Shown in pieces: positions 1 to 4,660 of a DNA stretch of 4,660 nt. Source of the DNA: a virus (taxonomy: Duplodnaviria; Heunggongvirae; Uroviricota; Caudoviricetes); the IMG/VR virus record IMGVR_UViG_2695420699_000005. The stretch is one strand, 5' to 3'. Under the pieces are notes generated by a model. That model did not search any database. It was not told the DNA's origin and worked only from the letters and a program-made list of their open reading frames with translations. Made by a program: the position numbers and the translations under genes. How positions within the stretch are numbered: the first letter of the stretch is position 1; every line of letters starts with the position of its first letter.

Positions 1-657
1 GATGGGCGTCTAAGTTACCAATTCTCGTCTGATGGCTACATACGGCGGTCAGTTTACGCTTACATGAATGGCACACAGGAGCGGGAATTATCTCTGGCTG
101 AATTATCCTGGTGGGCGGTCCGCAATCAGGTGGCGGACGCGCTACCGGAAGCTGTATTACGTCGTTCACTGGGGTTGCGTGCGGAAAAAATCCGCTCCTT
201 GTACCGCGAAAGCGACATCGTACCGGGAGAGCAGACCGCCACCAGCATACTGAAGCAGCGCACAAAAAATCTTGCGCCGTTGCTTCACACCCACCAGCCA
301 CAGAACCCAGCACAGGAAAAGGCGGTGGTCAGCATTACCGTTGATCCGGAGTCACCGGAATCATTCATGAAGCGGCCTAAACGTCGCCGCTGGGTGAATG
401 AGAAATATACGAGCTGGGTGAAGACACAGCCGTGTGCGTGTTGTGGTCAGCCAGCCGACGATCCCCATCACCTGATTGGTCACGGTCAGGGAGGGATGGG
501 AACAAAATCTCACGATATTTTCACGCTACCGCTGTGTCGGGAGCATCACAACGAGCTTCATGCGGATCCGCTGGCGTTCGAAGAAAAGCATGGTTCTCAG
601 GTTGATTTAATTTTTCGTTTTCTTGATCACGCCTTTGCAACTGGCGTGCTTGGGTAA
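1..657 (+). CDS. DUF968-like zinc-ribbon / HNH-like protein, probably 5'-truncated by the window edge (first in-window ATG at 64)
   Basis: ORF 64..657 ends in a Cys/His cluster (CACCGQPADDPHH ... LPLCREHHNELH) that I recall as the conserved C-terminus of DUF968 proteins (YdfU-like) of lambdoid prophages. The frame has no stop from position 1 to 63, so the gene likely starts upstream of the window. No convincing Shine-Dalgarno precedes the ATG at 64. Position directly upstream of rusA and Q fits the nin region. Confidence 0.6.
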   Translation, partial: DGRLSYQFSSDGYIRRSVYAYMNGTQERELSLAELSWWAVRNQVADALPEAVLRRSLGLRAEKIRSLYRESDIVPGEQTATSILKQRTKNLAPLLHTHQPQNPAQEKAVVSITVDPESPESFMKRPKRRRWVNEKYTSWVKTQPCACCGQPADDPHHLIGHGQGGMGTKSHDIFTLPLCREHHNELHADPLAFEEKHGSQVDLIFRFLDHAFATGVLG

Positions 658-669
658 AAGAGGTGACTG

Positions 670-1029
670 ATGCTCATAGATTTGGTTTTACCTTACCCGC
701 CGACGGTGAACACTTACTGGCGACGCCGTGGCAGCACATATTTTATCTCGGAGGAGGGAAAGCGTTATCGCCGGGCTGTGGCGCTTATTGTTCGCCAGCA
801 GCGGCTGAAATTAAGCCTGTCCGGAACGCTGGCGATAAAGGTGATTGCAGAGCCACCGGATAAGCGTCGTCGCGACCTGGACAACATTCTGAAAGCACCG
901 CTGGATGCGCTGACGCATGCGGGAGTGCTCATTGATGACGAGCAGTTTGATGAAATCAATATTGTACGTGGTCAGCCAGTATCTGGTGGACGGCTGGGTG
1001 TGAAGATTTACAAAATTGAGAGTGAGTGA
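670..1029 (+). CDS. rusA: Holliday junction resolvase RusA (crossover junction endodeoxyribonuclease)
   Basis: 119 aa ORF with an AAGAGG Shine-Dalgarno about 7 nt upstream of the ATG. Size and the acidic motif DKRRRDLDNILK match my recollection of E. coli RusA (about 120 aa, DRRRRDLDN catalytic region). Canonical position just upstream of Q. Confidence 0.85.
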   Translation: MLIDLVLPYPPTVNTYWRRRGSTYFISEEGKRYRRAVALIVRQQRLKLSLSGTLAIKVIAEPPDKRRRDLDNILKAPLDALTHAGVLIDDEQFDEINIVRGQPVSGGRLGVKIYKIESE

Positions 1030-1568
1030 GCGTAAATATGATATATCCGGAAATTACAGGCAAAAGCGGCGAACATTTACGCCTGAACACGCTGGAAGCA
1101 GTCTGGATCCAGGGGAAATTACGGATGTGGGGGCGGTGGTCGTATATCGGTGGGGGTAAATCCGGAAATATGTTTAACCGGTTACTGGTTTCGAAAAAGC
1201 TGACGAAAACAGCAGTTAATGAGGTTTTACGCAGAATGAAGAAATCCGGGCTGGAAAAACCGGAACTTGAGGCATTTTTTCGGGATATGACAAGAGGAAA
1301 GCAGAAGAGCTGGTTGTCACATTGTACAGACACAGAGGCGTTGATTATTGATCGCGTTATCAGTGAGGTGCTTGGGGAATATCCCGGGCTAATCAATATT
1401 CTCCGGCAAAGGTACGAAGGACGGGGAATGAGTAAGAGAAAAATGGCAGAATGTTTAAATCGTACTCACCCGGAATGGTGTTTCAGCACATGTGAGAAAC
1501 GTATTGCAGGTTGGTTAGCCGTGGCTGAACACATGCTTTATGTACCTATGCACGATTCATTTCGATAA
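1026..1568 (+). CDS. Q-like late-gene antitermination protein (alternative start ATG at 1038)
   Basis: 180 aa ORF whose GTG start at 1026 overlaps the rusA stop (GTGA), with an ATG alternative at 1038. The gene after rusA in lambdoid phages is Q, and it is followed here by a structured leader and terminator-like hairpins as expected for a Q-acting region. The sequence looks by eye like Q-family proteins but the family was not verified. Confidence 0.6.
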   Translation: MSVNMIYPEITGKSGEHLRLNTLEAVWIQGKLRMWGRWSYIGGGKSGNMFNRLLVSKKLTKTAVNEVLRRMKKSGLEKPELEAFFRDMTRGKQKSWLSHCTDTEALIIDRVISEVLGEYPGLINILRQRYEGRGMSKRKMAECLNRTHPEWCFSTCEKRIAGWLAVAEHMLYVPMHDSFR

Positions 1569-1664
1569 AAAAAGCTTGCTTTTTTACGCAGAAACAGCTT
1601 GAATTCCTGTAAGCTTCGCAAAGCTGTATCGCGAGGCGAAATGCAAGTTTTTTCGCACAAGGAA

Positions 1665-1686
1665 GCCACCGGAAGGTGGTTTTTTT
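1665..1686 (+). terminator. Candidate intrinsic terminator (possible tR'-like target of Q antitermination)
   Basis: 5-bp GC-rich stem CCACC/GGTGG (1666-1670 / 1675-1679, optionally extended by G1665) closing a GGAA tetraloop, followed directly by a run of seven T (1680-1686). Lies about 100 nt downstream of the Q stop codon. Confidence 0.4.
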
Positions 1687-1809
1687 GTGTCCGTAATATA
1701 CAGCAGCGCAATAAATTCGCTGGTGGTTATTAATACCGTTCTTTCAGGTTGCTGGCTTTTTCGACAAGAGTTATTGGTGTGTCACGTTAACCGGAAAAGG
1801 GAAAAAGAC

Positions 1810-2007
1810 ATGCTGAAACAGCAGGATATGACAGAAACCGCCAGAGTGGTGTTTAATGAATTAAGCGTTACCGACCCGGCGACAGTCGGGGAGATTGCGC
1901 AGAATACTTACCTTTCACGCGAACGCTGCCAGTTAATACTGACCCAGCTGGTTATGGCGGGTCTGGCAGACTATCAGTTTGGTTGTTACAGACGCCTTCA
2001 GTCCTGA
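1810..2007 (+). CDS. Small winged-helix / HTH DNA-binding protein (65 aa), hypothetical
   Basis: Internal ATG at 1810 of track ORF 1687..2007, with an AGGG Shine-Dalgarno 8 nt upstream. The stretch TVGEIAQNTYLSRERCQLILTQLVMAGLADY looks like a helix-turn-helix/wing segment. The part of the ORF upstream of 1810 is less protein-like and overlaps the leader hairpins. Confidence 0.5.
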   Translation: MLKQQDMTETARVVFNELSVTDPATVGEIAQNTYLSRERCQLILTQLVMAGLADYQFGCYRRLQS

Positions 2008-2020
2008 AGGCTTTTTTATT
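1994..2020 (+). terminator. Rho-independent terminator overlapping the stop codon of the small wHTH gene
   Basis: 7-bp stem GCCTTCA/TGAAGGC (1994-2000 / 2005-2011) with loop GTCC, followed by TTTTTTATTT (2012-2020). Confidence 0.55.
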
Positions 2021-2034
2021 TGTGGTAAATGGGC

Positions 2035-2065
2035 GGCTGGTGGGTGTAAGGGGCACCCACCAGCC
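2035..2065 (+). repeat. Perfect 12-bp inverted repeat GGCTGGTGGGTG-N7-CACCCACCAGCC; each arm contains a Chi octamer
   Basis: Read directly: 2035-2046 is the exact reverse complement of 2054-2065, with a 7-nt spacer TAAGGGG. GCTGGTGG lies at 2036-2043 and its complement CCACCAGC at 2057-2064. No U-tract follows, so it is not a typical terminator. Confidence 0.85.
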
Positions 2066-2157
2066 ATCTGCTCATGCGTTGGGTTCACAAGCAAACCTCA
2101 GGCCCACTGCTTTGCGCAAAAGCAGAATGAGCCTATCAGAGACAGGCTTAATGATCC

Positions 2158-3207
2158 ATGCTTAATACTGTAAAAATATCCAGTTGTGAGTTAATCAACG
2201 CCGACTGCCTGGAATTTATGCGGTCGTTACCCGAAAATTCTGTTGACCTGATAGTCACGGACCCGCCGTACTTCAAAGTGAAACCCGAGGGCTGGGATAA
2301 CCAGTGGGCGGGTGATGAAGATTACCTGAAGTGGCTGGACCAGTGTCTTGCGCAGTTCTGGCGGGTGCTGAAACCTGCCGGAAGTCTTTACCTGTTCTGT
2401 GGCCATCGTCTGGCATCTGACACCGAAATCATGATGCGTGAGCGGTTTAACGTGCTGAACCATATCATCTGGGCAAAGCCGTCCGGACGCTGGAACGGGT
2501 GCAACAAGGAAAGCCTGCGGGCGTATTTCCCCGCCACAGAGCGCATTCTGTTCGCAGAGCATTATCAGGGGCCGTATCGTCCGAAAGATGCCGGGTATGA
2601 GGCGAAGGGTAGGGCACTGAAACAGCATGTGATGGCCCCGCTGATTGCTTACTTTCGTGATGCGCGCGCTGTCCTGGGGATAACGGCAAAACAGATTGCA
2701 GATGCCACAGGAAAGAAAAACATGGTGTCGCACTGGTTCAGTGCCGGTCAGTGGCAGCTGCCGAACGAAAGCGATTATCTGAAATTACAGGCACTGTTTG
2801 CCCGGGTGGCAGAAGAGAAGCATCAGCGGGGTGAACTGGAAAAGCCCCACCACCAGCTGGTGGATACGTATGCCTCTCTGAACCGACAGTATGCGGAGCT
2901 GCAGAGTGAATATAAGCATCTGCGGCGGTATTTTGGTGTGACGGCGCAGGTGCCGTACACGGATGTGTGGACACATAAACCGGTGCAGTTCTATCCCGGG
3001 AAACATCCGTGCGAAAAACCGGCAGAAATGCTGCAGCAGATAATCAGCGCAAGCAGTCGTCCGGGTGACCTGGTTGCAGATTTTTTTATGGGCTCAGGTT
3101 CAACGGTAAAAGCGGCACTGGCGCTCGGGCGTCGTGCAATTGGCGTTGAGCTGGAGACTGAACGTTTTGAGCAGACAGTCAGGGAAGTTCAGGATTTAAT
3201 CGTTTGA
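2158..3207 (+). CDS. DNA methyltransferase, beta-class (motif IV DPPY N-terminal, motif I FxGSGS C-terminal), probably N6-adenine; orphan, with no adjacent restriction endonuclease
   Basis: 349 aa ORF with VDLIVTDPPYF near the N-terminus (2245-2274) and DFFMGSGSTVKAALALGRRAIGVE near the C-terminus. That motif order (IV then I) is the beta permutation of amino-MTases, and DPPY favours N6-adenine over N4-cytosine (often SPPY). The antisense ORFs inside it are low-complexity and treated as artefacts. Confidence 0.85.
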   Translation: MLNTVKISSCELINADCLEFMRSLPENSVDLIVTDPPYFKVKPEGWDNQWAGDEDYLKWLDQCLAQFWRVLKPAGSLYLFCGHRLASDTEIMMRERFNVLNHIIWAKPSGRWNGCNKESLRAYFPATERILFAEHYQGPYRPKDAGYEAKGRALKQHVMAPLIAYFRDARAVLGITAKQIADATGKKNMVSHWFSAGQWQLPNESDYLKLQALFARVAEEKHQRGELEKPHHQLVDTYASLNRQYAELQSEYKHLRRYFGVTAQVPYTDVWTHKPVQFYPGKHPCEKPAEMLQQIISASSRPGDLVADFFMGSGSTVKAALALGRRAIGVELETERFEQTVREVQDLIV

Positions 3208-3218
3208 AACGGATGAGA

Positions 3219-3247
3219 TTGCAGAATTAATTTCGCACCATTATTAT
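3219..3247 (+). promoter_or_regulatory. Candidate sigma70 promoter for the tRNA cluster
   Basis: TTGCAG (3219-3224), 17-nt spacer, TATTAT (3242-3247), which would start transcription a few nt before the tRNA 5' end at 3257. The -35 is weak; pattern match only. Confidence 0.3.
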
Positions 3248-3256
3248 TCTGGTCCC

Positions 3257-3332
3257 GGCCCTTTAGCTCAGTGGTGAGAGCGAGCGACTCATAATCGCCA
3301 GGTCGCTGGTTCAAATCCAGCAAGGGCCACCA
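3257..3332 (+). tRNA. ileZ: tRNA-Ile2-like (anticodon CAU, ileX/ileZ type; formally could read as tRNA-Met)
   Basis: 76 nt with acceptor stem GGCCCTT/AAGGGCC, D-arm AGCTCAGTGGTGAGAGC, anticodon loop CTCATAA, T-loop TTCAAAT, discriminator A and encoded CCA. Near-identical by recollection to E. coli ileX (tRNA-Ile LAU). A phage tRNA-Ile of this type next to a tRNA-Arg is the arrangement known from Stx-type lambdoid phages. Confidence 0.9.
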
Positions 3333-3339
3333 TCACATA

Positions 3340-3419
3340 CCGCCATTAGCTTATCAGGAAGAGCAGACGACACCATAACAGGGTTGTTGGTGCGGGGGCG
3401 GGTCCCCGATGGCGGTCCA
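3340..3419 (+). tRNA. tRNA-like element, non-canonical (possible pseudo-tRNA or argN-position remnant)
   Basis: Perfect 7-bp acceptor-type pairing CCGCCAT (3340-3346) with ATGGCGG (3409-3415), then T and CCA (3416-3419). Plausible D-arm GCTT-ATCAGGAA-GAGC and a 5-bp GC stem CGGGG/CCCCG directly abutting the 3' acceptor strand. However the T-loop is a non-consensus 6 nt (GCGGGT) and no canonical anticodon stem-loop could be drawn. Confidence 0.35.
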
Positions 3420-3432
3420 TTATCGGTATTCT

Positions 3433-3509
3433 GCGTTGTTAGCTCAGCCGGACAGAGCAATTGCCTTCTAAGCAATCGGTCACTGGTTCGACTCCACTAC
3501 AACGCGCCA
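3433..3509 (+). tRNA. argO: tRNA-Arg (anticodon UCU, reads AGA)
   Basis: 77 nt with acceptor GCGTTGT/ACAACGC, D-arm AGCTCAGCCGGACAGAGC, anticodon stem-loop ATTGC-CTTCTAA-GCAAT (anticodon TCT), T-loop TTCGACT, discriminator G and encoded CCA. One C-C mismatch in the T-stem. Resembles E. coli argU. Confidence 0.85.
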
Positions 3510-3522
3510 CACTTATTTTCCA

Positions 3523-3546
3523 GGCTCGCTTCGGCGGGCCTTTTTT
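3523..3546 (+). terminator. Rho-independent terminator downstream of the tRNA cluster
   Basis: 7-bp stem GGCTCGC/GCGGGCC (one G-U pair) with a UUCG tetraloop (3530-3533), followed by TTTTTT (3541-3546). Confidence 0.6.
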
Positions 3547-3678
3547 GTATCTGCGCCACGCCCGGTGCATATCAACCACAGAGCCTTTCGGGGGTGAGCT
3601 TACGGAGTGGTCAGTGTGACTTTCTCTGTGGGCAGATCGCTCCCGGGCGTTGGCTCACCCACCCAAAGGAACGTCACG

Positions 3679-4111
3679 ATGTTTGGTATTTTTGGTAAAA
3701 AAAGCCCGCAGAGCGGCAACGGAAATTAAAAAGTTTGAAAAACGCGATCTGGCACAGGTGGTGATTAACGCCGCATACCTGGTGGCCTGTGCAGATGGTG
3801 AATGTGAGGCTTCCTAGAAAGCGAAGATCGAACAGGTACTGCGTAATCAGCCTGCGCTGTCCGCGTTTACGTCAGAAATTAATGCGATTAGCGCAACCAT
3901 TATCGGTCAGCTGGATACGAACTTTAAAATTGGTCGTCGTGCGGCGTTACGTGAGATCGAGGATGTGAAACACGATACGCGTGAAGCGGAAGATGTGCTG
4001 GATGTGGCGGTGGCCATTGCGGAGGCAGACGGCGAAATTGAGCCGGAAGAGCGCAAGGTGCTGGAAGAGATTGCCGGTGTTCTGGGTCTTCGTCTGGAGA
4101 ATCACCTGTGA
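3679..4111 (+). pseudogene. TerB-like (tellurite-resistance TerB family) gene disrupted by a frameshift in an A7 run and an in-frame amber codon
   Basis: ATG at 3679 with an AGGA Shine-Dalgarno 8 nt upstream reads MFGIFGKK then stops after 16 codons. Shifting +1 at the A7 run (3697-3703) continues as ARRAATEIKKFEKRDLAQVVINAAYLVACADGECEAS, hits TAG at 3815-3817, then continues KAKIEQVLRNQPALSAF...VAIAEADGEIEPEERKVLEEIAGVLGLRLENHL to TGA at 4109-4111. The composition is strongly protein-like and the ADGE...EE...L pattern resembles TerB-type domains, which I recall being annotated at this position in enterobacterial prophages. Confidence 0.5.
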
Positions 4112-4275
4112 CGGTAAAACTGCGCCTGACTGTGGCTGCACTCCTGCTGTTTCTGGTGGTGATGGTGGATTTCACCAGCAGAATCATGTCGGTGCTGGCG
4201 GATGGGGTGCTGGTCTGCGGCATTGTGGTATTGCTGTGGCCGGTGATAAAAAGAAACAGCCTGCATAATGCTTGA
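4108..4275 (+). CDS. Small hydrophobic membrane protein (about 55 aa, two predicted TM helices), translationally coupled to the TerB-like frame
   Basis: GTG start at 4108 overlaps the TerB-frame stop (GTGA). Translation VTVKLRLTVAALLLFLVVMVDFTSRIMSVLADGVLVCGIVVLLWPVIKRNSLHNA has two hydrophobic segments and ends at TGA 4273-4275. Track ORF 3981..4268 is in another frame and is W/R-rich and non-protein-like. Not in the ORF track under this frame; start codon uncertain (internal ATG alternatives exist). Confidence 0.4.
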   Translation: MTVKLRLTVAALLLFLVVMVDFTSRIMSVLADGVLVCGIVVLLWPVIKRNSLHNA

Positions 4276-4476
4276 TTTTTTTGTTTGCTGTTTATTAAAA
4301 ACACTTCTGCATGGTGAATCCCCCTGTGCGGAGGGGCAATCAGCGAGTAGGTATATGGGATAATCGCGGATTCAGGTGCTGGTACTGAATTCACCGGGAG
4401 GCACCCGGCACCATGCTTTGCCACAAAAGTGTTATTTCTGTTTTTCTCAAACTATCATCGTTATCCCTTTATTTCC

Positions 4477-4503
4477 GGCTGCGCATGGCGCGGCCTTTTT
4501 TTT
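4477..4503 (+). terminator. Rho-independent terminator
   Basis: 8-bp stem GGCTGCGC/GCGCGGCC (one G-U pair) with 3-nt loop ATG, followed by eight T (4496-4503). Confidence 0.6.
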
Positions 4504-4589
4504 ACGACCAGCCACTGGCAGATGGTCATCCTGTGATTTGATTCCGGTTCCGGCTTTTTAACTCTGTTCCTGTACACGGGAGAAATTCG

Positions 4590-4660
4590 ATGTCGATTAA
4601 ACATTATGATGTTGTCAGGGCGGCGTCGCCGTCAGACCTTGCGGAAAAGCTGACACACAA
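4590..4660 (+). CDS. Hypothetical protein, 5' end only (runs off the window)
   Basis: ATG at 4590 preceded by a GGGAG Shine-Dalgarno (4578-4582). Open frame MSIKHYDVVRAASPSDLAEKLTH to the window end. Not hydrophobic, so unlikely to be a holin. Family not recognised. Confidence 0.45.
   Translation, partial: MSIKHYDVVRAASPSDLAEKLTH

What the first reader, a model, noticed from the sequence alone, without database searches (positions are those of the whole stretch)
3679..4111. TerB-like gene inactivated by an A7 frameshift and an amber codon
The frame is clearly protein-coding in composition but is interrupted twice. The first lesion lies in a homopolymeric A7 run (3697-3703), a context prone to sequencing error, phase variation and transcriptional or translational slippage, so the gene may be a decaying cargo gene, an assembly artefact, or a slippage-dependent gene. 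TerB-domain proteins have been linked to stress and phage-defence contexts.
Basis: partly seen in the sequence, partly recalled or inferred. Interest (0 to 1): 0.55.

Follow-up and report, generated by a model that had tools for sequence, protein, structure and literature searches.

The report
Broken prophage tciA (TerB-like) gene
This is a dead copy of a small TerB-like accessory gene (tciA) in an E. coli lambda-like prophage, broken by one extra A near its start and by a premature stop codon; the same broken allele sits in hundreds of E. coli assemblies, so it is real but ordinary gene decay.

Summary
Window 3679-4111 is the prophage gene tciA, a stand-alone TerB-domain protein (Pfam PF05099, E=2e-11). 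It lies after the Q-like antiterminator, a DNA methylase and two tRNAs, and is followed by tciB (DUF3927).

- **Frameshift:** relatives in E. coli, Klebsiella, Salmonella, Serratia, Pantoea, Erwinia jumbo phages and P1 all start at the ATG with MFG-F-KKARRA. Intact E. coli alleles carry A6 or AAAAAGAAAA. The window's A7 is therefore a true +1-nt frameshift.
- **Amber codon:** TAG 3815-3817 is GAG in intact copies.
- **Not an artefact:** the identical sequence occurs in complete genomes, where RefSeq already marks it as a pseudogene ("internal stop"). The exact 44-aa truncated product is on 430 contigs.
- **Annotation nuance:** RefSeq does not see the frameshift. It starts A7 alleles at a chance TTG (3683) and calls A7-only copies intact (WP_001303509.1).
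- **Slippage or phase variation:** not supported. The A7 site is not conserved, A6 and A7 sit on different sequence backgrounds, and the amber kills the gene whatever the frame.
- **Wider picture:** about 44% of roughly 100 sampled prophage copies carry some lesion.

Low interest; already known.

The parts
3666..3670 (+). Shine-Dalgarno-like AAGGA serving the ancestral ATG (8-nt spacer). It lies 12 nt from the TTG used by RefSeq.
   Evidence: Read directly from the sequence. Invariant in the aligned copies.
3679..3729 (+). Ancestral tciA start codon (ATG 3679-3681) and the 16-codon out-of-frame ORF it now opens (MFGIFGKKSPQSGNGN, stop TAA 3727-3729).
   Evidence: Translation. Family N-termini MFG(I/M/F/L)F(G/K)KKARRA in E. 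coli, Klebsiella, Salmonella, Serratia, Pantoea and Erwinia phages. phrog_632 matches the ATG-repaired protein 1-143/143.
3697..3703 (+). A7 homopolymer: lesion 1, one A more than the A6 of intact alleles (+1-nt frameshift).
   Evidence: A6 in 36 intact IMG/VR loci with this start sequence. Among 95 contigs with this allele: A7 48, A6 45, A5 2.
3683..3817 (+). The reading frame RefSeq annotates, starting at a fortuitous TTG. In this window it gives only a 44-aa N-terminal fragment (MVFLVKKARR...GECEAS) that ends at the amber codon.
   Evidence: PGAP CDS coordinates in 14EC007, O157:H7 4276 and strain 155 map to window 3683. The exact 44-aa product is on 430 contigs.
3815..3817 (+). TAG amber codon: lesion 2, a G-to-T change of GAG (Glu). 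It cuts the protein at residue 45-46 of 143, ahead of most of the TerB domain (Pfam match covers residues 31-138).
   Evidence: Alignment with intact copies. RefSeq note 'internal stop' on the identical sequence. Pfam domain limits.
3818..4111 (+). The remaining two thirds of the tciA frame, still open but no longer reached by ribosomes. It includes a 48-aa GTG ORF (3965-4111) that gene callers often annotate as a small 'TerB' protein.
   Evidence: Translation. ORF list. The 48-aa ORF matches phrog_3920 and is recorded on 802 contigs.
4108..4275 (+). tciB (DUF3927), a 55-aa protein with two hydrophobic stretches. Its GTG start overlaps the tciA stop (GTGA), so the two are probably translationally coupled. 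The gene is intact here.
   Evidence: Pfam PF13064, E=3.3e-17. phrog_1470 'TciB-like'. The overlap and the hydrophobic stretches are read from the sequence.
3257..3509 (+). Upstream context: two prophage tRNA genes, CAU-anticodon tRNA (3257-3332, Ile in RefSeq) and tRNA-Arg UCU (3433-3509). This is the position that precedes stx in Stx phages.
   Evidence: ARAGORN. Rfam. RefSeq annotation.
3522..3547 (+). Terminator-like hairpin plus T-run between tRNA-Arg and tciA.
   Evidence: Consensus scan only, not evidence of function.

Best explanation
Window 3679-4111 is a pseudogene allele of tciA. tciA encodes a 143-aa stand-alone TerB-domain protein and forms a two-gene accessory ('moron') cassette with tciB, a small DUF3927 membrane protein. 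The cassette sits in the late region of E. coli lambdoid prophages, after the Q-like antiterminator, a DNA methylase and the phage tRNAs, and before the SASA/NanS-p esterase and the lysis genes.

Two ordinary mutations inactivate it:
1. One A was added to an A6 run at codons 7-8, as replication slippage would do. The ancestral ATG now opens a 16-codon dead-end frame.
2. A G-to-T change turned Glu codon GAG into amber TAG at residue 45/46.

Ribosomes starting at the ATG make a 16-aa peptide. Any that start at the chance TTG four bases downstream, or that slip back into frame at the A-run, stop after 44-45 residues, ahead of most of the TerB domain. No functional TciA can be made.

tciB is intact, but it has lost translational coupling to tciA and is probably expressed less (inferred).

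The allele is inherited, not a sequencing error. It has spread among E. coli prophages, partly by recombination. It is one stage of a wider decay of this gene, which also includes A7-only alleles, a separate one-base deletion, and a 5' deletion that also carries the TAG.
For: **Identity**
- Pfam TerB above cut-off.
- phrog_632 full-length match 1-143/143, E=2e-68, and phrog_1470 for tciB.
- PDB 2JXU TerB, E=5.7e-8.
- Phage records name the pair tciA/tciB; P1 TciA is 40-51% identical over the full length.

**Frameshift**
- Relatives from six genera and from jumbo phages begin MFG.F.KKARRA at the ATG.
- Intact DNA has A6 or AAAAAGAAAA.

**Amber**
- GAG in intact copies.
- RefSeq flags the identical sequence as 'internal stop'.

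**Real and widespread**
- 100% identity to a complete genome.
- 31 IMG/VR contigs carry A7+TAG.
- The 44-aa product is on 430 contigs.
- All five prophages with the same methylase that retain tciA carry A7+TAG.

**Progressive decay**
In a roughly unbiased sample of about 100 copies:
- 56 intact
- 17 A7+TAG
- 12 with a 5' deletion plus TAG
- 8 A7 only
- 3 with an independent single-G deletion
- 2 K-allele plus TAG
- 2 others.

The TAG occurs with four different 5' ends, which indicates recombination.
Against: - No expression data exist here. Low-level initiation at TTG 3683 or +1 slippage on A7 cannot be excluded for A7-only alleles. RefSeq treats those alleles as intact.
- The order of the two mutations cannot be resolved because the alleles are mosaics.
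- The biochemical function of intact TciA/TciB is not established. 'Tellurite resistance' is a name transferred from the ter operon.
Confidence: 0.9

Rival explanations
1. Sequencing or assembly artefact: the extra A and the TAG are base-calling errors, homopolymer errors being typical of long-read or 454 data, and the gene is intact in the real genome.
For: A7 is a homopolymer, a context prone to indel errors. This is established knowledge; nothing in the data here points that way.
Against: - The same A7+TAG haplotype recurs in four complete genomes.
- It is in 31 IMG/VR contigs from many isolate genomes.
- It is in five independent assemblies that share the methylase.
- The exact truncated product is on 430 contigs.
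- The TAG is linked to a synonymous GCA-to-GCT change at 3811, as expected for an inherited haplotype.
Confidence: 0.02
2. Recoding: the A7 run is a programmed +1 ribosomal frameshift or transcriptional slippage site, or the gene is translated from TTG 3683. TciA would then be made at a tuned low level, and the amber would be read through or suppressed.
For: - A +1 slip of tRNA-Lys on AAA AAA A would restore the frame exactly (read from the sequence).
- The TTG at 3683 gives a near-full-length ORF in A7/GAG alleles, which RefSeq accepts as WP_001303509.1, seen on at least 993 contigs.
- 15 of 46 A7 alleles keep the rest of the frame open.
Against: - The shift site is not conserved. Relatives have in-frame A6, AAAAAGAAAA or AAGAAA.
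- The 0-frame codon after the run is an ordinary AGC, not a stop or a rare codon. No prfB-like stimulator is visible (sequence).
- By established knowledge, A7 is shorter than the A/T runs of about 9 or more that give efficient transcriptional slippage.
- In this window the amber cuts the product at residue 45 whatever the frame, and the two phage tRNAs are Ile(CAU) and Arg(UCU), not suppressors.
- A7 is strongly associated with a second lesion: TAG in 31 of 46 A7 alleles against 2 of 38 A6 alleles. This fits relaxed constraint after loss of function.
Confidence: 0.05
3. Phase variation: the A-run is a contingency tract that switches tciA(B) on and off within populations.
For: - Both A6 and A7 are common: 45 against 48 contigs.
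- One A6 allele differs from A7 alleles at only 2 of the 408 nt after the run, so at least one gain or loss happened recently.
Against: - The tract takes essentially two lengths, each tied to its own SNP background. Identical backgrounds do not show mixed lengths.
- A5 is seen only twice, in copies whose downstream sequence is also disrupted. The single eight-A run arose by a G-to-A substitution, not by a length change.
- By established knowledge, A6/A7 is short for a contingency locus.
- The amber makes switching irrelevant in this allele.
Confidence: 0.03

Closest known systems
tciA-tciB of lambdoid E. coli phages and prophages (for example Escherichia phage JLK-2012, PPyecE_EH1910, phage Evi; RefSeq WP_001303509.1 'tellurite resistance TerB family protein' plus the adjacent 'DUF3927 family protein')
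   Same: Same gene, same neighbours and same position after the phage tRNAs. The repaired protein is 96-97% identical and the DNA is 88-100% identical.
   Different: The window's copy has A7 instead of A6 and TAG instead of GAG, so it is a pseudogene. RefSeq already marks the identical sequence in strain 14EC007 as a pseudogene with an internal stop.
[quoted passage not shown]
   Same: Homologous over the full length, 40-51% identity. A small tciB-like gene lies next to it. The name derives from similarity to terB (PMC9603915).
   Different: P1 carries a third gene, tciC, and places the operon in a different genomic context. In P1-like elements the operon is also often lost: nearly half of subgroup 1 lack it (PMC9603915). 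Function is unproven in both.
TerB of the terZABCDE tellurite-resistance operon (Klebsiella pneumoniae TerB, PDB 2JXU)
   Same: Same Pfam domain (PF05099) and detectable sequence similarity over residues 15-137.
   Different: This is a stand-alone TerB protein. The window has no terC, terD or terE neighbours, so tellurite resistance should not be inferred.
Homopolymer frameshift pseudogenes in cryptic prophages (generic class)
   Same: A one-base gain in a short A-run followed by further lesions. Many sister copies are at different stages of decay.
   Different: Nothing distinctive. The only peculiarity is that a chance TTG hides the frameshift from automatic annotation.

Membership tests
TerB domain family (Pfam PF05099) | Significant match to the TerB profile above Pfam's gathering score | tested here: met
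   44.6-44.9 bits against a cut-off of 24.4, E about 2e-11, residues 30-138 of the repaired protein. PDB 2JXU TerB, E=5.7e-8.
TerB domain family (Pfam PF05099) | An uninterrupted reading frame able to encode the domain | tested here: not met
   A7 frameshift and TAG at 3815-3817. The longest translatable piece that contains part of the domain is 44-48 aa. It is a pseudogene of a family member.
Phage TciA/TciB cassette (phrog_632 + phrog_1470) | Full-length match of the first gene to the phage TciA/TerB profile | tested here: met
   phrog_632, E=2.1e-68, protein 1-143 against profile 1-143/143, only with the ATG/A6 repair.
Phage TciA/TciB cassette (phrog_632 + phrog_1470) | An adjacent small TciB/DUF3927 gene immediately downstream | tested here: met
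   Window 4108-4275: PF13064, E=3.3e-17; phrog_1470, E=5.6e-30. Its start overlaps the tciA stop.
ter (terZABCDE) tellurite-resistance operon | Presence of terC and terD/terE-type genes next to terB | tested here: not met
   The neighbours are tRNAs, DUF3927, an sRNA and a SASA esterase. There are no other ter genes.
Known anti-phage defence systems (PADLOC models) | Significant match to a defence-system protein model | tested here: not met
   Only a sub-threshold hit, PDC-S48, E=0.0058 over 35 residues. tciB has no hit.
Programmed frameshift or transcriptional-slippage genes | The out-of-frame arrangement and the slippery site are conserved among homologues | tested here: not met
   Homologues are in frame with A6, AAAAAGAAAA or AAGAAA. 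A7 is confined to one E. coli sub-lineage.
Programmed frameshift or transcriptional-slippage genes | Measured frame restoration giving a full-length product | not testable with these tools
   Needs reporter assays, proteomics or ribosome profiling.
Phase-variable contingency loci | Tract-length polymorphism on otherwise identical backgrounds | tested here: inconclusive
   A6 and A7 are each tied to distinct haplotypes. The closest A6/A7 pair differs at 2 of 408 nt. No within-strain data are available.

The most novel reading that the evidence does not exclude
tciA may be lost repeatedly, and not neutrally, in E. coli strains that carry many lambdoid prophages. Five kinds of lesion were seen: A7 insertion, an independent single-G deletion, the TAG spread by recombination onto four different 5' ends, a 5' deletion, and whole-cassette loss. 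That pattern could reflect selection against TciA. It might be costly or dosage-sensitive when several copies are co-expressed, or it might interfere with co-resident phages. A7/TTG alleles, annotated as intact, would then be attenuated low-expression variants rather than nulls.
Probability: 0.1. Interest if true: 0.35.

Novelty: already known. Interest (0 to 1): 0.12.

Why it matters
It matters little for biology. The finding documents routine decay of an accessory gene in a lambdoid prophage, and RefSeq already marks the identical sequence as a pseudogene.

Two practical points are worth keeping:
- Automatic annotation hides the A7 frameshift by choosing a chance TTG start. The widely propagated 142-aa 'intact' protein WP_001303509.1 (MVFLVKK...), seen on at least 993 contigs, is probably the product of a frameshifted allele with a wrong, or at best very weak, start. 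The 44-aa and 48-aa 'TerB family proteins' in databases are pseudogene fragments.
- Anyone testing what TciA/TciB does (tellurite, colicin, cell division or phage exclusion) should use an A6/GAG or K-type allele. The O157-type A7 allele and this A7+TAG allele are unsuitable.

Tried and rejected
- **Counting alleles in the 5,426 complete E. coli genomes.** I considered short 41-nt megablast queries centred on the A-run. I dropped the idea because the low-complexity filter would probably mask A7 and no 28-nt seed would remain. Pattern scans of IMG/VR were used instead.
- **Literature search for tciA/tciB.** It returned mostly Trypanosoma 'TcIa/TcIb' papers. Only P1-plasmid papers were relevant, and none deals with this pseudogene.
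- **PADLOC.** No convincing defence-system match.
- **NCBIfam.** Only sub-cut-off hits (DjlA 29.9 bits against 162; YmfL 18.2 against 90).
- **Rfam at a permissive threshold.** Nothing overlaps the gene. The weak hits (Plastid-ycf2, asX2, P26) are below gathering scores and were treated as chance.
- **The window's exact source.** Not found. The best prophages are 97.5-98.7% identical over 64-4660, and bases 1-63 do not align.
- **dN/dS comparison of A7 against A6 lineages.** Not attempted. There are too few substitutions and clear recombination, so it would have no power.
- **Structure prediction.** Judged unnecessary, because the Pfam, PHROG and PDB sequence matches are unambiguous.
- **Order of the two mutations.** It could not be inferred because the alleles are mosaics.

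Full report
**1. What the sequence shows**

- An ATG lies at 3679-3681, 8 nt after an AAGGA Shine-Dalgarno motif (3666-3670).
- It is followed by TTT GGT ATT TTT GGT and then seven A's (3697-3703).
- In the ATG frame the reading stops after 16 codons (MFGIFGKKSPQSGNGN, TAA 3727-3729).
- The +1 frame is open from 3650. It reads ...KKARRAATEIKKFEKRDLAQVVINAAYLVACADGECEAS, meets TAG at 3815-3817, and then stays open for another 98 codons to TGA 4109-4111.

So there are two interruptions of one clearly coding frame, as described.

**2. Genomic context**

The window is the late-regulatory region of an E. coli lambdoid prophage. In order it contains:

| Feature | Window coordinates |
|---|---|
| DUF968/HNH protein | 64-657 |
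| RusA | 670-1029 |
| Q-like antiterminator (DUF1133, phrog_753) | 1026-1568 |
| 65-aa ORF | 1810-2007 |
| N6/N4 DNA methyltransferase | 2158-3207 |
| CAU-anticodon tRNA (Ile in RefSeq) | 3257-3332 |
| tRNA-Arg UCU | 3433-3509 |
| The gene in question | 3679-4111 |
| 55-aa DUF3927 gene | 4108-4275 |
| STnc100-family sRNA | 4280-4452 |
| Start of a SASA (NanS-p-like) esterase | from 4590 |

By established knowledge, the slot after Q and the phage tRNAs is the one that holds stx in Stx phages. It is transcribed from the late promoter under Q antitermination.

Phage records name the gene pair tciA/tciB (phage JLK-2012, PPyecE_EH1910). [quoted passage not shown]

**3. Identity of the gene**

- The repaired protein matches Pfam TerB above the curated threshold (44.9 bits against 24.4).
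- It matches PHROG 632 from end to end (1-143 of 143, E=2e-68).
- It matches the solved Klebsiella TerB structure 2JXU (E=5.7e-8).
- It is 40-51% identical to P1 TciA over the full length.
- No other ter genes are nearby, so it is a stand-alone TerB-domain protein. Tellurite resistance should not be assumed.
- PADLOC gives no significant defence-system match.

**4. Is A7 really a frameshift?**

This needed care, because RefSeq does not treat it as one. In O157:H7 strain 4276 and in strain 155 the same A7 sequence, with GAG instead of TAG, is annotated as an intact 142-aa protein, WP_001303509.1. That annotation starts at a TTG which maps to window 3683, four bases after the ATG and in the shifted frame.

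The wider family settles the matter.
- Homologues from E. coli, Klebsiella, Salmonella, Serratia, Pantoea, Enterobacter and Erwinia/Salmonella jumbo phages all begin MFG(I/M/F/L)F(G/K)KKARRA..(I/V)KKFEKRDLAQAV. That is the ATG frame joined to the main frame.
- The DNA of intact E. coli alleles reads ATGTTTGGTATTTTTGGT-AAAAAA-GCCCGC (A6) or ...TTCAAAAAGAAAACC.
- All 129 phage homologues align over at least 80% of the ATG-repaired protein, and nearly all of the 40 listed align from residue 1.

A7 is therefore one base too many. The TTG arises by chance from the ancestral codons TTT GGT. It lets gene callers rescue the frame with an altered N-terminus, MVFLVKK in place of MFGIFGKK.

The TTG lies 12 nt from the SD and overlaps a strong ATG. 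I infer that the A7 allele on its own is at best weakly expressed, but this is not shown.

**5. The amber codon**

Intact copies have GAG (Glu) where the window has TAG. The TAG is linked to a synonymous GCA-to-GCT change one codon upstream. RefSeq annotates the identical sequence in strain 14EC007 as a pseudogene with an 'internal stop'.

The stop falls at residue 45/46, ahead of most of the TerB domain (Pfam match from residue 31 to 138). No functional protein can result, whatever happens at the A-run.

**6. Real or artefact?**

The lesions are real.
- The 801 nt around the gene are 100% identical to one complete genome and 99.9% identical to three others.
- Among 95 IMG/VR prophage contigs with this start sequence, 48 have A7, 45 have A6 and 2 have A5.
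- TAG is present in 31 of 46 full-length A7 copies but in only 2 of 38 A6 copies.
- The exact 44-aa TTG-to-amber product is recorded on 430 contigs. The 48-aa C-terminal GTG ORF (3965-4111, which has its own PHROG, 3920) is on 802. The A7/TTG 142-aa protein is on at least 993.
- All five prophages that carry an identical methylase and retain tciA have A7+TAG.

**7. Population picture**

Haplotype tables show that A7 alleles form a sub-lineage with their own SNPs. The closest A6 allele differs from A7 alleles at 2 of the 408 nt after the run. One A6+TAG copy is a recombinant with a 5' end from the main A6 lineage.

A scan anchored on a conserved 3' segment gives a roughly unbiased sample of about 100 copies.

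| State of the copy | Copies |
|---|---|
| Intact | 56 |
| A7 + TAG | 17 |
| 5' deletion + TAG | 12 |
| A7 only | 8 |
| Independent single-G deletion (ATGTTTGTATT) | 3 |
| K-type start + TAG | 2 |
| Others | 2 |

The 5' deletion joins the region near window 1800 to about codon 18 of tciA. One related prophage lacks the whole tciAB cassette (L276).

This is a gene decaying along several routes, with lesions shuffled by recombination between prophages. The order of A7 and TAG cannot be resolved.

**8. Mechanism**

What is shown:
- Two point lesions relative to intact alleles.
- Their inheritance and spread across many assemblies.
- The truncated reading frames they leave.

What is inferred:
- The extra A arose by replication slippage in the A6 run.
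- Ribosomes mostly start at the ATG and make a 16-aa peptide.
- tciB has lost translational coupling. Its GTG overlaps the tciA stop as GTGA and is preceded by a GGAG, so it is probably expressed less.

**9. Rivals**

- **Artefact:** excluded by recurrence in many independent assemblies.
- **Programmed +1 frameshifting or transcriptional slippage:** a +1 slip on AAA AAA A would restore the frame. Against it, the site is not conserved in relatives. The next 0-frame codon (AGC) is ordinary. A7 is shorter than tracts known to slip efficiently (established knowledge). A7 is also strongly associated with a second inactivating lesion.
- **Phase variation:** not supported. The two tract lengths sit on different backgrounds. 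Within-strain data are lacking.

**10. Verdict**

The feature is an already annotated, widespread pseudogene allele of a known prophage accessory gene.

The only mildly new point concerns annotation. The A7 frameshift is masked by a chance TTG start, so the 'intact' O157-type protein is probably a frameshift product. Interest is low.

Noticed in passing
window 4280-4452 (+): Strong Rfam match to the prophage sRNA family STnc100 (RF02076; 101.5 bits against a gathering score of 47), between tciB and the SASA esterase. In this region RefSeq places a 'partial hypothetical protein' pseudogene on the opposite strand. A 2026 preprint links STnc100 to the PasD sRNAs and lists TerB genes among the conserved neighbours of PasA/PasC.
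   Followed up: partly
window 3683-4111; L002 1684-2112; L003 1688-2116: RefSeq protein WP_001303509.1 (142 aa, MVFLVKK..., TTG start) is annotated as intact in O157:H7 and other strains, and is seen on at least 993 contigs. It comes from the A7 frameshift allele. The family-wide N-terminus shows that the true start is the ATG 4 nt upstream, now out of frame.
   Followed up: yes
12 IMG/VR loci (sequences printed); junction corresponds to window ~1800 joined to ~3730: A deletion class joins the region just upstream of the 65-aa ORF (CCGGAAAA.GG) directly to tciA at about codon 18 (AAAGTTTGAGAAACG). It removes the small ORF, the methylase, both tRNAs and the tciA 5' end. All 12 copies also carry the TAG.
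   Followed up: partly
3 IMG/VR loci: An independent tciA frameshift: loss of one G in codons 2-3 (ATGTTTGTATTTTTGGTAAAAAAGCC), on the A6 background with GAG.
   Followed up: no
L001 2614-3725 (strain 14EC007); also 14EC017 (H32, L272): A frameshifted IS421 (IS4 family) transposase is inserted between the two prophage tRNA genes in otherwise near-identical prophages. The window lacks this insertion.
   Followed up: no
L276 (GCA_037622475.1), equivalent to window 3549-4290: A related prophage with the same methylase lacks the whole tciA-tciB cassette. The alignment jumps from window 3549 to 4290.
   Followed up: no
window 3257-3332: ARAGORN calls this tRNA-Met (anticodon CAT), whereas RefSeq annotates the same gene as tRNA-Ile. 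That fits a lysidine-modified CAU tRNA-Ile2 of the ileZ type found in Stx-phage-like prophages.
   Followed up: no
window 1569-1690: Just after the Q-like gene lies an A/T-rich stretch followed by the hairpin GCCACCGGAAGGTGG plus a T-run (about 1664-1687). It looks like the late promoter and tR' terminator region on which Q would act. On the + strand it was seen by eye only; the scan reported the hairpin on the minus strand.
   Followed up: no
window 1-63: The first 63 bases do not align with any of the closest prophages, whose matches all begin at 64-76. This suggests a mosaic boundary inside the DUF968/HNH gene.
   Followed up: no
window 3965-4111: The 48-aa GTG ORF left at the 3' end of broken tciA has its own PHROG family (phrog_3920, 'unknown function') and is deposited as a 'TerB family protein' on 802 contigs. 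A pseudogene fragment has become a database family.
   Followed up: yes
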